DNA of 64,000 nt. Source: Eledone cirrhosa. Its lineage: Eukaryota. Shown here in pieces: positions 21,478 to 34,300 of this stretch. Position numbers and translations under genes: made by a program. The notes beneath the pieces were generated by a model. It saw nothing but the letters and a program-made list of their open reading frames with translations, was not told where the DNA came from and made no database searches. Every line of letters begins with the position of its first letter. Positions within the stretch are counted from its first letter, which is position 1. The DNA lies in contig OZ024757.1 of assembly GCA_964016885.1 (NCBI GenBank), positions 15,314,001-15,378,000 on the forward strand. The letters run 5' to 3'.

Positions 21478-21522
21478 AGTCATAGTCCTTTCGTCACACA
21501 CTCTGTGACCTCTTCAGTGACT
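21478..21522 (-). ncRNA. Minimal type I hammerhead motif
   Basis: agtca-CTGAAGA-g-gtcaca(gagtg)tgtgac-GAAA-ggac-TA-tgact. Confidence 0.7.
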
Positions 21523-22497
21523 GGGGATTCCTTTCTTATATCGGTTTCAACACACGATTTCAGATAAAGATTCTTGCTAAACAAATTCAGAAACGATATA
21601 TATATATATATATATATAATCAACAACTGCTGCTTCAGACTTAATCCAGTTTAGGACTATACAGTTATTGAGGGTTGGAAAGCGTGCTCACATCAATATA
21701 GCAGATGGATGAACAATTACGAGATAGCAATTGAAAATTGGGCGGACTTGAAGAAACCTGGGATTGCAAAGGGAAAGGATGTGACCAAGATCTCTGAGAA
21801 CCACTGCTCTATATTATTAACACTTAATACTTTCTATTTTTCAAGAATGTCTTTCTAATGCAGTTTCATGTGGTACAGGGTGTTAAGGATTGAAGGGAAG
21901 AATAAAAACAGTTTCAAGATTGGAATTTTCAATATTGAGTATATGTGGTTTGGGTTTTAGCTAATTAGTATATTGTCATAAAGTGTTTTCATTAAATTGT
22001 ATGATTTACAACTGGTGTCTGAGGTATGAATACAATCACTAAATATATATCACATGCATACACACACATAGTTATATGTGTATGTGTGTGTGTATATATA
22101 TATATGTATAGATAGATAGATAGATATATGAAAAATTCAGGACTTCAACTGCTAGATCTGAACTCAACTGTTGAAACAGTAGAGCTCAGCCGTTGGGGTC
22201 CTGAATTTTTCATACTACCAACTCTACTACCCTAAGTATCGGGTACTGTGGTGAGTAATGGTCTAATTTGTTTTTACCACCCCCATTCTGATATATATAT
22301 AGATATATATATATGAGATTATAGTGTGTTAGTTCACTATTTTCATTGGTAAGATAAGTTAAGCTCTTAAGATAAGTTAATGCCTCTTTTACACTTCTTT
22401 CTTCTGGACCGAATAGTTATAGTAGCCGAGCATTTATAATTCAACATTCAGTAAGACCAAGGATTAATATTATTGTTATTCTTACTGAATTTCGAAT

Positions 22498-22530
<33 letters not shown>

Positions 22531-23099
22531 ATGTATATATGTATATATGTGTGTGTGTATGATATTTATTTAGTGATTGTACTCATACCTCAGACACCAG
22601 TTTATATATTTACACACACACATATATGTGTGTGTGTGTGTGCGTGTATATATATATATATATGTATGTGTGTGCATATGTGTGTATATGCAAAGTCGAA
22701 TCAAATTGAGTAGATCACTTAAAAGTACAAACAAACAAAATATCTGGAAGACAAATGATGCAATGACGGAGGAAAGAAAAACCCCCTTTAATATGCTATA
22801 ATCATCATAGCAAGACAAATAATTCACTTAAAATACTGAGCAGGCTGTAGCTGTTCCCTTTTTGAAAATACTGCAGGAACATCATTGAAATATTTACCAC
22901 AAATATGAGGCATGCAGCAACAGATAAGTTAGAAACGAGAAGTAAGAACTGTTGTCACAAAATTATGATAACTGACTGAAGAATACCTAATGTGAGATGC
23001 TGCCAAATTTTGAAAATATAGCAACAGAAATTGAACAATTTGTTTTTTTCTTTTCTTGAAATATCTATATATATTTTCTTGTTGTTCCATCTTATTAGC

Positions 23100-23163
<64 letters not shown>

Positions 23164-24689
23164 GGATGATGAGGAAGATGAGAAAGAAGAGAAACAGGTG
23201 GTGGAGAAAAGGGAAAGTATGATTCATTGCATTATTGATTTCTGATAGTATTGATCTCTTGGAGACACTAAGGGGAGAATGAGTACATTCAATTGGTCAG
23301 AATTTATTTTCTTGACTACCCGCCACCCCTGGGTGGAGAAAATACCAAAGCTAACCTTGGTAGGATTTAAAATTGTTATATATAAAGATCTGTAACTAAA
23401 TACTGTAAATATTTTGTTCAATAAGTTGTTAATTCTGCCAACACACCCTCAAATCTTTAACCCTTTAGCATTTACACCAGCCATATATGACCAAAATTCT
23501 CTCACTACTTTCTGTTCAAATTGGCCATAACTGGCCACTCATACTGACATTAAGGTATTGTTCTCAAAATAAATATTAACATCATCAAAATCTCATAGAT
23601 TCCATATCATGTGAGATAATTGCAAATAAAATAGTAATGTAAATGCTAAAGGGTTAAAACACTTTTGAGAATAAACTGTTTAAAACCAGCCCTGGTTCTA
23701 TGATAGAAACAGTTTATTTTAAAGTATATTTATCTAAAAAGTGCCATCATAATTTTATGTAAGAACCTTATTTAAATTATGCTCCAAACACTAGCTTAAC
23801 ACTTTTAACACAAAACCATCTGAAACCAGTCCTGCTTCTATGATATAAAACTTCTTTTTCTTCTTCACCCACTTATTATTTAGTGGGTTGTGGGGGCAGA
23901 GTTCTCAGAGGTGTCTTATCAGAAGCAACCATCTCCAAATGATCTGGCTGGATGCCCATCCAAGATCAACTGAGTACATGGATATTATCCAACATGATAC
24001 AAAGTTGTTTATATTTATCTAAAAATGCGCCATCATGATTTTTTGTAAGAACTTTTGTTAAATTATGCTTAACCCTTTTGATTCCAAAATGCCTGAACTC
24101 ACTCCTGCTTCTACAGTGTTTATATTTATCTAAAACCTATTGTGATTTTATGTAAGAACCTTTGTTAAAAGGTGCTCCAAACACTGGTTTGATAATGCAA
24201 AAGTGAGTTATGTTACAAAATACATCCAAATTCTTTATTATTTTCAAAATTACATGAAAATCATTAGAGTCTCTTCACAAAAGTTAATCAGAATGGTAAG
24301 GATGAAAGGCAAAGCTAACCTCGGCATTATTTGAAATCAGAATGTAAAGGACATAACTCTATGCTGCAAAGCATGTTGTCCGACGCCCCACCAGCTCTGC
24401 CAATTGTTGTAGTAACAAGAATGCTTAAAGTCTCAAAAATGTGCTCAAACATAACTACTTCTCTGATACAGGCCCATTTATATAAAGAAATGGCATGGTT
24501 TGATATACTTAAAGAAAATACTTACAGTTTAGGGAAATGGAATGAAAGCAAGTTCTATAACTCTAGGGATTCTTTCAGAGGGCAAATTCTCTTTTGTAAC
24601 ATTTACAATATATACATATATATATATATGTACATTTATATACATACATACATATATATATCTACACACGTATATATATATATATCTAC

Positions 24690-24726
<37 letters not shown>

Positions 24727-24812
24727 TATATATATATACACATATATATATACATACATATATATATATATACACACATACAAATATATGTATATACACA
24801 TACATATATATG

Positions 24813-31352: not shown

Positions 31353-31414
<62 letters not shown>

Positions 31415-31462
31415 TATATATAATACATTTATATACATATATTATATAATACATGTATATAC

Positions 31463-31500
<38 letters not shown>

Positions 31501-33320
31501 CATTTATATACTTTATATATATTTTTTTATAATACATGTATATACATATATATATATTTGATATAATACATGTATATACATATATATATATAATGCATGT
31601 ATATACATATATATAAAATATATAATATATATACTACACATATATATATATATTATATGTATATAAAGTATTATTTTTTCTGAACAAAAATTGTTAAAGT
31701 ACTCAACATAAAGATATACATACCAACTAAACTGTGTCATGACTGACAGACTTGAAGTTTCATGATAAAAGATGCTTTAAAATCATGGATGAATGAAGCA
31801 GAAAGCAATTGATTTTAAAACATGTTTCAAAATGAAGGTTGATGTCTTCTATTACACAGTTTAATCTATATGTTTATATATATATATATATATATATATA
31901 AGTATGTGTATGATGAGTGAATTTTTTTTTTTTTATGATTGATGTTGAACATCACAGCTTTGAAAAAATAAAGAATAAGTGCTTCAAGATCTCTAATTAC
32001 CCAAATCTGCTACCTTTGAGATTGAGAAAAGCTCCAGACAGTCTACTTAATTCCTCAGTTGTGTCTTTTTCTTATTATTCCTTATAACTGTCATCTTTTC
32101 ATTTTATTTTATTTTATTTATATTTGTAATTTTTTTGTTGCTAAGAATATCTAATATAAGGGCAGATAATTATAGAAAAATATAACAGAAATTGTATTTA
32201 AAATAAGGTCATTATATGTTAGTATGTATAATATTTAAGAATGTTAGGCATATAAAATGTATGTAATTAAGTTTAATTTTATTTGCCCCCTTGACATTAA
32301 ACCTTCCCTAGTTTTATAATACAAATGTATATATTTATCTAAAACCCTTACATAAGATCCTTTGTTAAGTTATGCTTCAAACACCAACTTACTAATGAGA
32401 AACTTAGTTATTTTATTAAATCTTGCCAAATTCTTAAATATTTTCAAAATCATTGGTTAAGACTGTAAAATCCAGCAATTCTTTCTTTAGGGTTGCGACC
32501 AGTAGACAGTATTAGCAATTGAAAAGACTAATTGAAACATTGTTTCCTTGGTCCGATCTGACGAGTTCTGCCCAACTCGGTGGACAAACTGGGGTCTGGG
32601 ATCTGGTCAATTTGGACCTTTTTTTTAACTATATAGTTGAAGATATTGCCATTTAAAGACCTGCTTTAGTCTCTCTCCTTAAATAAGTTACCTCAATTGT
32701 AGAAGTGTGTGTATTCATACAATTACTGAGAAGTCAATATCAAAGGAATTCATTTAAACAAAATTTTAGATAAATAAGTTATTCAAACCTCCTTTAACCC
32801 CTTTAAGATACATAATTCTTTTCTTCCTTTATAATTTGTAAATTTGAAAGATATAATTTCCTTATGATAATATCAGCTTTACAATGATGATTTCAATTTA
32901 GCTTTATACTATTTTCCTTTCCATACATTTTCTGTATCTATACATATAAAATACATTTCATTTTGTTATATTAACAAGTTAGAAGAGTATACAAAATTTT
33001 AAGTGTTGTATATATATATATATAGATGTATTGTAAAGAAATCCATAGAGTTTGCAGAGATATCTCCATTTATAAATCTTTGTATATATATATATATATA
33101 CTAATTTTGTTAAAAAGATTTTTTGTATTAGTTGTTTAAAGAGAGAAAATATGTTTGCTAATTTAGCATATGTCCCTTGAAACTGGAGGACAACTTAAAT
33201 TAATATGAATTTAGTAAAATAGGTTCTTTTGATAACCTGACAAAGGTAGCAGCTGGAAGTATTGTATCAAAAAAAAATAACATCAGAACAATCTTTGAGA
33301 CCCCATGTTTCCTGGCTTAC

Positions 33321-33431
33321 CCTTATGCCAAATCCCATTAATTTCAGGAGACACTCTATCGTGAACAACACTGAAAATGCTGAATTAAGATTCCGAAGAC
33401 TACTTTTATACTCTTCTGTTGAGGGATAACA
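33321..33431 (-). CDS. Cav2: Cav2 IV S1-S2 loop + IVS2, alternative exon A (CYPSTEEYKSSLRNLNSAFSVLFTIECLLKLMGFGIR)
   Basis: ctttgtcag / gtaagc, 111 nt, phase 0-0; S2 consensus N..F..LF..E..LK...FG. Confidence 0.93.
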
Positions 33432-33449
33432 CTGACAAAGAAAGGGGAA

Positions 33450-34300
33450 AATATATAATATATATAATATGATATAATGTATAATATATGTAATATAATG
33501 TATTATATGATGTAATGTAGCATAATATAATGTATTATATTGTAATATAATTTAATATAATATAATGTAATTAATATAATATATATAATATGATATATTA
33601 TAATATAATGTAATATAACATATTATAATGTAATATAATTTAACATAATGTAATATAACTTAAAATATAATATAATGTAATATAACTTAAAATATAATAT
33701 AATGTAATATAACTTAAAATATGATATAATATAACGTGATATAACTTAATATATAATATAATGTATTATAATGTAATTAATATAATATATATGATATGAT
33801 ATGATATGATATATTATAATATAATTTAATATAACTTAATATAATATATTATAATATAACTTAATATAATATATATATATGTGTGTATTGAACAATGAAA
33901 AAACACACAAAAGTCGAAGATAGGTTCTTATGATAATTTGTTCATTGTTTTACAATCGTTTCAGAGGGTTGATTGATCATGGTAGATCGATATATTGACT
34001 AACGGGTTGTGCTTATGTCACTACCTATTTCTAGTCTCGAAATCCTTGATCCATCTCACCGTCTTCCTCAGAAACAATAATATAACTTAATATAATACAA
34101 TATAATATAATGTAATATAATGTAATGTAATATTATGTAATATAATATAACATAATATAGTATAATATATTGTAATATAATGTAATGTAATATTATGTAA
34201 TATAATGCCATGTAATATAATATAATGTAATATAATATAATATAATGTAATATTATGTAATATAATATAATATAATGTAATGCAATATTATGTAATATAA
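33450..34300. repeat. (TAATA/TAATG)n microsatellite block interrupted by the hammerhead-bearing insert
   Basis: Direct inspection. Confidence 0.9.
33944..34078 (-). ncRNA. Type I hammerhead motif with extended stem II
   Basis: attgttt-CTGAGGA-(~100 nt with complementary ends)-GAAA-cgattg-TA-aaacaat; perfect 7-bp stem I. Confidence 0.7.

What the first reader, a model, noticed from the sequence alone, without database searches (positions are those of the whole stretch)
21478..34078. Several families of Penelope-type hammerhead ribozymes in the Cav2 pre-mRNA around the alternative exons
Seen: at least six sequence-unrelated families share stemI-CTGA(A/T/G)GA-stemII-GAAA-short near-palindromic stemIII-TA-stemI, often followed by AATAAA, embedded in AT microsatellites and often in inverted repeats. 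The three best-preserved copies (33944-34078, 25192-25246, 21478-21522) are all in transcript sense, within the 24-kb IVS1-IVS3 interval holding the alternative exons. The antisense copies I found are damaged. Established: Penelope-like retroelements and retrozymes carry minimal type I hammerheads with palindromic stem III that cleave best as dimers. Inference: probably TE debris, but co-transcriptional intron cleavage could affect exon choice or transcript level. The numbers are small.
Basis: partly seen in the sequence, partly recalled or inferred. Interest (0 to 1): 0.75.

Follow-up and report, generated by a model that had tools for sequence, protein, structure and literature searches.

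The report
Retroelement hammerhead debris in Cav2 introns
Three short self-cutting-type RNA motifs in the introns of an octopus calcium-channel gene are copies of very common jumping-gene repeats, and are likely silent passengers rather than splicing switches.

Summary
The three motifs are real minimal type I hammerheads, on the sense strand of an octopus Cav2 gene near two duplicated domain-IV exons. They are ordinary repeat copies. Motifs A (25192-25246) and B (21478-21522) have 3,638 and 3,156 letter-perfect copies genome-wide, and other copies lie behind Penelope-type endonuclease ORFs. C (33942-34080) is an old copy of a ~200-bp repeat. Good preservation of A and B therefore reflects recent transposition. 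In 1.48 Mb of other genes I found 3.0 intact motifs per 100 kb, 20 sense and 24 antisense. Cav2 also has sense copies and an intact antisense copy in domain-I introns. A is predicted to be locked in a ~240-bp hairpin, and the three motifs cannot pair up as dimers. I confirm three families in the window, not six. Cleavage, RNA ends and conservation are untested. Earlier notes of this scan report Penelope-linked hammerheads elsewhere in this genome.

The parts
25192..25246 (-). Motif A: minimal type I hammerhead (helix I 5 bp, CUGAAGA, helix II 10 bp with a C/C mismatch and G-U as first pair, GAAA, palindromic helix III, UA, then AATAAA)
   Evidence: MFE gives helices I and II, z -2.6; 3,638 exact genome copies
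25018..25366 (-). 5'-truncated 3' end (pseudo-LTR) of a young Penelope-like family carrying motif A, inserted in (AT)n. A ~20-nt (AT)n-TGATAT stretch on both sides looks like a target duplication.
   Evidence: 95-96% identical to loci L002/L004/L007/L012; 39 other copies at 96-99% among 40 scored of 931 candidates; GIY-YIG-like ORF upstream in L004 and L002; flanks
25362..25604 (+). Inverted second arm of the same insertion, with the antisense hammerhead (25485-25549) damaged by a 10-nt duplication. It is transcribed before motif A and is complementary to it.
   Evidence: 90% over 239 nt; predicted hairpin -380 kcal/mol, core unpaired probability 0.0
21478..21522 (-). Motif B: minimal type I hammerhead (helix I 5 bp, CUGAAGA, extra G, helix II 6 bp from G-C, GAAA, imperfect palindrome, UA)
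   Evidence: 3,156 exact genome copies; an identical sense copy also lies in a domain-I intron of the same gene
21320..21618 (-). 5'-truncated 3' end of a second Penelope-like family (Neptune/Nematis-like ORF) with an 81-nt inverted tail piece (21538-21618), flanked by (AT)n
   Evidence: RT plus Cys linker plus GIY-YIG ORF ends ~220 nt upstream of the same motif in L049
33942..34080 (-). Motif C: hammerhead core with 9-bp helix I, a ~100-nt helix II domain and palindrome CGATTG (CGATCG in several other copies); 511 nt upstream of alternative exon A
   Evidence: MFE buries part of the core
33880..34084 (-). Old ~200-bp non-coding repeat that carries motif C; no ORF link found
   Evidence: 83-89% identical to the best 11 other copies, 1,782 candidates
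33321..33431 (-). Cav2 alternative exon A (IVS1-S2 linker and IVS2, 111 nt, phase 0)
   Evidence: tblastn with P0003, AG/GT ends
30501..30635 (-). Cav2 alternative exon B (paralogue of exon A, 135 nt, phase 0)
   Evidence: tblastn with P0004, AG/GT ends
39131..39298 (-). Cav2 exon ending in IVS1 (upstream flank of the interval; 5' end approximate)
15009..15104 (-). Cav2 exon with IVS3 (downstream flank of the interval; 3' end approximate)

Best explanation
The three motifs are minimal hammerhead ribozyme sequences carried by high-copy repeats, two of them Penelope-like retroelement ends, that inserted into AT-rich microsatellites of the Cav2 introns, and they are likely inert passengers in the pre-mRNA. 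Shown here: the repeat identity, copy numbers, ORF linkage for A and B, and equal strand use in other genes. Inferred: 5'-truncated insertion leaves mostly the 3' pseudo-LTR with its hammerhead, often with an inverted second arm. In the element's own tandem RNA, two identical motifs would swap strands through the palindromic helix III and cut. As lone copies they lack a partner; A is also predicted to be buried in a long hairpin. They would be spliced out uncut and decay neutrally.
For: (1) Exact copies: A 3,638, B 3,156, reversed-pattern controls 0. C has 1,782 first-look candidates, best copies at 83-89% identity. (2) An RT/GIY-YIG ORF lies directly upstream of B in L049, and a GIY-YIG-like ORF upstream of A in L004/L002. 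Pfam support is weak: RVT_1 E 0.007, GIY-YIG E 0.047, both below cut-off. (3) The tandem/inverted layout and (TA)n targets match PMC8557442 (passages). (4) Control genes, 1.48 Mb: 20 sense and 24 antisense intact motifs, p 0.65, 3.0 per 100 kb; Cav2 has 3.45 per 100 kb. One sodium-channel-like gene is skewed the other way, 2 sense to 7 antisense. (5) The share of intact copies is the same on both strands, 19 of 41 and 21 of 51, p 0.68. (6) A's core is fully paired in the hairpin. Helix III strands of A and C pair at only 5 of 8 positions, B differs in length, and the helix I sequences differ. (7) Published relatives: no cleavage as monomer and low activity as dimer (PMC4209133). A Poseidon hammerhead cut only with its own protein, and no RNA-seq ends were found at the site (PMC11167929).
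Against: (1) Three intact sense copies in 24 kb: Poisson P 0.0045 for that interval, 0.07 for any such interval in a 174-kb gene; 14 of 814 overlapping 24-kb control windows had as many. (2) Over the 174 kb of Cav2 mapped, the count is 5 sense to 1 antisense (p 0.22; 0.19 against controls). (3) Among lone copies, controls lean antisense (intact 7:14, p 0.19; all 16:28, p 0.10), while the three lone intact Cav2 copies are all sense (Fisher p 0.06); one of the three lies outside the alternative-exon region. (4) C lies only 511 nt from an alternative 3' splice site. (5) No Penelope ORF was linked to family C. (6) No cleavage, RNA-end or orthologous-site data exist.
Confidence: 0.9

Rival explanations
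1. One or more sense copies (most plausibly C, next to exon A, or B) has been co-opted. It would cut the nascent intron and shift the choice between the two IVS2 exons or lower Cav2 mRNA, as the CPEB3 ribozyme does.
For: Local cluster P 0.0045; C is 511 nt from exon A; cores are intact. An intronic ribozyme modulates CPEB3 mRNA (PMC10274809, abstract). A fast engineered hammerhead in an intron lowers mRNA up to 20-fold (PMC11856399, passages).
Against: A and B are identical to thousands of copies. C's core is also intact in 7 of the 11 closest other copies (read) and its palindrome has decayed. There is no dimer partner, and MFE folds of B and C misfold the core. Less optimised hammerheads in introns gave under 3-fold. 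No sense excess in four other channel genes, 10:14.
Confidence: 0.04
2. Lone sense copies are weakly active or act as cryptic poly(A) sites genome-wide, perhaps cut in trans with abundant family RNA or element protein. They would then be mildly deleterious and under-represented in introns, and the Cav2 copies are tolerated survivors without a role.
For: Lone copies in control genes: 16 sense to 28 antisense (p 0.10); intact 7:14 (p 0.19). AATAAA directly follows motif A. Protein-assisted cleavage is reported in PMC11167929. Vertebrate retrozymes are under-represented in introns (bioRxiv 2026.07.22.740005).
Against: Not significant. The split into lone and paired copies was made after seeing the data, and the added 280 kb gave 2:2. 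Much of the skew comes from one gene.
Confidence: 0.25
3. Any effect on the pre-mRNA comes from double-stranded RNA, not catalysis: the inverted arms of insertion A would form a ~240-bp hairpin that is a likely substrate for A-to-I editing and could affect splicing nearby.
For: Predicted hairpin -380 kcal/mol, 90% paired over 239 nt. Such inverted pairs are common: 30 pairs in control genes. Heavy editing in cephalopods is recalled, not tested.
Against: It lies 5.3 kb from the nearest exon, is a young insertion, and no RNA data were available.
Confidence: 0.05

Closest known systems
Minimal type I hammerheads (min-HHR) in pseudo-LTRs of metazoan Penelope-like elements (Cervera and de la Pena 2014, PMC4209133; parts 1-2 of 4 read)
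   Same: Short helix I, long helix II, palindromic helix III, high family diversity, thousands of mostly solitary copies, opposite-strand pairs 100-700 bp apart. B also has the extra nucleotide before a G10.1-C11.1 pair.
   Different: New host (2 searches found no octopus hammerhead study). A and C lack the G10.1-C11.1 pair (G-U, A-U). C has a ~100-nt helix II domain. Many octopus families have a pyrimidine-pyrimidine mismatch at the fourth helix II position (by eye).
Neptune/Nematis-type C-terminal-endonuclease PLEs (Craig et al. 2021, PMC8557442; passages read)
   Same: The family B ORF has RT (YVDD), a C-x4-C-x2-C linker, then GIY-YIG at the C-terminus; (TA)n targets; inverted 5'-truncated arm; tail piece.
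   Different: No tree was built, so the clade is a motif reading. The family A endonuclease looks different (C-terminal CxxC cluster) and its RT was not fetched.
Animal non-LTR retrozymes (bioRxiv 2026.07.22.740005, part 1 and passages; PMC7229834, search listing only)
   Same: Short non-coding repeats with a type I hammerhead; family C could be such a non-autonomous derivative.
   Different: Retrozymes are defined by head-to-tail tandem units. The copies here are single or inverted pairs.
Host-co-opted intronic ribozymes: mammalian CPEB3 HDV-like ribozyme (PMC10274809, abstract) and amniote intronic hammerheads (PMC6765202, passages)
   Same: Sense-strand ribozyme motif in an intron; CPEB3, like Cav2, is a neural gene.
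   Different: Those are single-locus, conserved and active as monomers (partly recalled). These are letter-identical members of young repeat families that need a dimer partner, with no conservation shown.

Membership tests
Minimal type I hammerhead (PLE min-HHR) | Catalytic core CUGANGA, GAAA and UH in type I order | tested here: met
   All three copies; core invariant or near-invariant in alignments A1 and A2, which the descriptor required
Minimal type I hammerhead (PLE min-HHR) | Helices I and II supported by compensatory change | tested here: met
   31 rows: 95.5% of cells paired, 17 of 20 pairs with two-sided change, 0 of 500 shuffles as high, slid controls 34-53%. Rows were picked by a pairing descriptor and are related, so the test leans towards the structure.
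Minimal type I hammerhead (PLE min-HHR) | Short palindromic helix III that allows dimer formation | tested here: met
   Self-pairing 8/8 for A, 8/8 with wobble for C, 4/6 for B
Minimal type I hammerhead (PLE min-HHR) | Extra nucleotide after A9 and G10.1-C11.1 pair (typical, not universal) | tested here: inconclusive
   Met in B; A has G-U (G-C in some family members) and C has A-U
Minimal type I hammerhead (PLE min-HHR) | Self-cleavage as a dimer | not testable with these tools
   Needs an in vitro assay
Penelope-like element (EN+) | RT plus GIY-YIG ORF joined to the hammerhead-bearing pseudo-LTR | tested here: met
   Family B: 431-aa open frame in L049 ending ~220 nt before the motif. Family A: GIY-YIG-like frame in L004/L002, RT not seen. 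Motifs read by eye, Pfam below cut-off.
Penelope-like element (EN+) | The same link for family C | tested here: inconclusive
   No shared upstream ORF sequence among 12 loci; copies start at helix I
Penelope-like element (EN+) | 5' truncation, inverted arm, insertion in (TA)n | tested here: met
Penelope-like element (EN+) | RT groups with PLE clades in a tree | not tested
   No reference PLE proteins were fetched
Non-LTR retrozyme | Head-to-tail tandem units each with a hammerhead | tested here: not met
   Single or inverted copies only in the window
Co-opted intronic regulatory ribozyme (CPEB3-like) | Locus-specific sequence rather than a high-copy young repeat | tested here: not met
   3,638 and 3,156 exact copies; C is one of about 1,800 candidates
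Co-opted intronic regulatory ribozyme (CPEB3-like) | Conserved at the orthologous position across species | tested here: inconclusive
   Tried for A only: the second organism's contigs cover parts of the repeat but not the unique flank
Co-opted intronic regulatory ribozyme (CPEB3-like) | Sense-strand excess or enrichment in neural gene introns | tested here: not met
   Four other channel genes 10:14, dynein regions 7:6, all controls 20:24; densities 3.0-3.45 per 100 kb
Co-opted intronic regulatory ribozyme (CPEB3-like) | Cleavage in vivo and effect on mRNA | not testable with these tools
   Needs RNA-end mapping and mutants

The most novel reading that the evidence does not exclude
A retroelement-derived hammerhead, most plausibly the old copy C 511 nt upstream of alternative exon A, cuts the nascent octopus Cav2 intron (alone through its long helices, or helped in trans by family RNA or protein) and biases the choice between the two IVS2 exons: a natural ribozyme switch for a synaptic calcium channel.
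Probability: 0.04. Interest if true: 0.85.

Novelty: new member of a known kind. Interest (0 to 1): 0.14.

Why it matters
As found, it matters little: it extends the known Penelope minimal hammerheads to an octopus genome, where every large gene carries several. The useful by-product is a null model (about 3 intact motifs per 100 kb of gene, no clear strand bias) against which any claim of a regulatory intronic hammerhead in cephalopods must be judged. With thousands of identical intronic copies on both strands, this genome also allows a well-powered test of whether such ribozymes cut pre-mRNA in vivo at all. If a copy did steer Cav2 exon choice, it would be, as far as my searches reach, the first such case in an invertebrate.

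Tried and rejected
1. Rfam scan: no hammerhead family among the 150 listed of 158 matches at E<=10; the list is dominated by microsatellite-driven miRNA noise. This is no evidence against the motifs.
2. Variant-core and one-mismatch scans, weak BLAST and covariance model R1 found no further convincing family in the window. R1 was built without 4-nt-helix-III rows and so misses B.
3. The repeat finder was swamped by AT microsatellites.
4. Sequencing runs: no RNA holder listed.
5. Read laying covered insertion A only. Depth is dominated by other family copies, the apparent empty-site joints have only 18-24 letters on the short side inside (AT)n, and the second organism does not cover the unique flank. 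Inconclusive; B and C remain untested.
6. A six-order scan for scrambled hammerheads returned nothing, but it also missed the known type I positives, so it is uninformative.
7. Lunse et al. (dimer cleavage) is not held; it is known here only through the review PMC6765202 and recall.
8. No paper on these mollusc Cav2 duplicated exons turned up in one search. A recent octopus repeat annotation does not contain the word ribozyme (PMC13282606, passages).
9. Look-ups of earlier findings near this place and by motif C sequence were blank.
10. No supplementary files were opened. The min-HHR tables of PMC4209133 and file S1 of PMC8557442 may already list cephalopod families.
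Full report
1. The observation. A descriptor scan for type I hammerheads (helix I >=4 bp, CUGANGA, helix II >=4 bp, GAAA, self-complementary helix III, UH) gave 5 hits in the window against a mean of 0.08 in 60 shuffles. The other two are the damaged inverted arm of A (25485-25549, plus strand) and a weak sense candidate (51144-51233). 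Rfam listed no hammerhead family. Relaxed scans, BLAST with a library of 14 families and a covariance model added only a core-less relic of family B and one more weak sense candidate at 11078-11141. So three families are confirmed here, not six. AATAAA follows A directly, B at 97 nt, and C not within 200 nt.

2. The host gene. One exon is 100% identical to proteins that sources name as octopus voltage-dependent calcium channel type A alpha-1, with N-type and cacophony-like relatives next. tblastn maps the gene on the minus strand over at least 174 kb of window plus neighbouring DNA. Between the IVS1 and IVS3 exons lie two paralogous phase-0 exons, 33431-33321 and 30635-30501, with AG/GT ends. 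The two octopus database proteins use one each, so they are probably mutually exclusive (inference). C lies 511 nt upstream of the first; A and B lie 5.3 and 9.0 kb downstream of the second.

3. What the motifs belong to. Each is part of a dispersed repeat. The full 55-nt motif A occurs 3,638 times and the 45-nt motif B 3,156 times letter for letter, with 0 for the reversed patterns. In locus L049 a 431-aa open frame with an RT motif, a cysteine linker and a GIY-YIG domain ends about 220 nt before motif B. In L004 and L002 a GIY-YIG-like frame lies upstream of motif A. Pfam support is weak and below cut-off; the motif names are my reading. Copies are 5'-truncated, often have an inverted second arm and sit in (AT)n, as described for Penelope-like elements in PMC8557442 (passages). 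The cysteine linker points to the Neptune/Nematis type for B; no tree was built. C belongs to an older ~200-bp repeat (83-89% identity to the best copies) that starts at helix I and showed no ORF link in 12 loci. Structure is supported across families: in 31 rows (30 of the 43 loci listed plus motif A; rows with 4-nt helix III and near-duplicates left out, one row misaligned) 17 of 20 pairs show two-sided change. The rows were selected by a pairing descriptor, so this is partly circular.

4. Is Cav2 special? I fetched oriented control genes: four other four-domain channel genes (named Cav1-, Cav3- and Nav-like by my reading), 15 dynein heavy-chain regions, and later three spectrin-repeat gene regions and two more channel stretches. 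Intragenic status is inferred from exon hits within or on both sides; in the two added channel stretches no exon was found. In 1.48 Mb there are 44 intact motifs (score >=13): 20 sense, 24 antisense, p 0.65, 95% interval for the sense share 0.30-0.61, 3.0 per 100 kb. Cav2 has 3.45 per 100 kb (5 sense, 1 antisense, p 0.22), including two intact sense copies and one intact antisense copy in domain-I introns, far from the alternative exons. Damage is not strand-specific: 19 of 41 sense and 21 of 51 antisense copies are intact in the first 1.2 Mb. Lone copies in controls lean antisense (7:14 intact, 16:28 all; p 0.19 and 0.10), while the three lone intact copies in Cav2 are sense (p 0.06). Both the interval and the lone/paired split were chosen after seeing the data, and this window was one of many read.

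5. Could they cut here? A is preceded in the transcript by its own complement; the predicted hairpin covers 239 nt at 90% and leaves the core no chance of being unpaired. Alone, A folds into helices I and II, whereas the MFE folds of B and C trap part of the core. Minimal hammerheads need a partner with matching helices I and III. A, B and C do not match each other, and the nearest identical sense copy of B is 141 kb away. Published relatives did not cut as monomers and cut weakly as dimers (PMC4209133; review PMC6765202). One cut only with its own protein and left no ends in RNA-seq (PMC11167929). In zebrafish introns a fast engineered hammerhead lowered mRNA 20-fold, and less optimised ones under 3-fold (PMC11856399). 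If the many intronic sense copies cut efficiently, a clear antisense excess would be expected; it is not seen (inference).

6. What could not be tested. Cleavage, RNA ends, editing and splicing effects were out of reach. The one read-laying test, on insertion A, could not show the orthologous site; B and C were not tested.

7. Verdict. Observation partly confirmed. The motifs work like, and for A and B are filed as, Penelope pseudo-LTR minimal hammerheads; C is a probable non-autonomous relative. A host role at Cav2 is unlikely (about 4%). New member of a known kind; interest 0.14. Papers seen: PMC4209133 parts 1-2 of 4; bioRxiv 2026.07.22.740005 part 1 and passages; PMC8557442, PMC11167929, PMC6765202, PMC13282606 and PMC11856399 passages; PMC10274809 abstract; others as search listings only; no supplements.

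Noticed in passing
window 33431-33321 and 30635-30501 (minus strand): Duplicated, probably mutually exclusive Cav2 exons for the IVS1-S2 linker and IVS2 (37 vs 45 aa). Exon A is only 76% identical to its database counterpart, while flanking exons are 92-100%. A whelk protein (P0078) seems to carry both in tandem, so the duplication may be old in molluscs.
   Followed up: partly
control genes L057-L176, L197-L224: Lone hammerhead copies lean antisense (16:28, p 0.10), which could mean weak selection against sense copies in introns.
   Followed up: partly
random stretches L177-L196: Only 1 intact motif in 200 kb of arbitrary genome positions, against about 6 expected at the genic rate (Poisson p 0.015): these elements may be denser in genes than outside.
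   Followed up: partly
alignment A2, columns 19 and 58; motifs A and C: Many otherwise diverged families keep a pyrimidine-pyrimidine (often C/C) mismatch at the fourth position of helix II, possibly a tertiary or protein contact; seen by eye only.
   Followed up: no
window 33880-34084; L034-L044: Family C copies begin almost exactly at the 5' strand of helix I and carry a ~100-nt structured helix II domain; no autonomous partner found.
   Followed up: partly
window 50880-51160: Inverted pair of family-B 3' ends that has lost the 5' half of the core; it gives false plant-miRNA hits in Rfam.
   Followed up: partly
window 11078-11141 and 51144-51233 (minus strand): Weak, probably decayed sense-strand hammerhead candidates, each with one 71-76% homologue in fetched DNA.
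   Followed up: partly
window 61710-61760 and 13787-13837: A very common short repeat with a CTGATGA word; whether it is a decayed or rearranged hammerhead was not examined.
   Followed up: no
window 24930-25010: Very deep read coverage next to insertion A; loose ends match the 3' tail of the commonest hammerhead family, so one element probably inserted beside another.
   Followed up: no
G000:C1 lists; L196, L187: Same-strand copies of motif B spaced about 3.5-4.5 kb apart, and long ORF matches in random loci, suggest many full-length tandem Penelope-like elements that may still be mobile.
   Followed up: no
G000:C4:284100001-284190000: The Cav1-like gene shows no exon match for 90 kb after its IVS3 exon; this probable large intron holds three intact sense motifs within 10 kb, like the Cav2 cluster.
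   Followed up: partly
window 9093-9292: 200-N gap inside a Cav2 intron.
   Followed up: no
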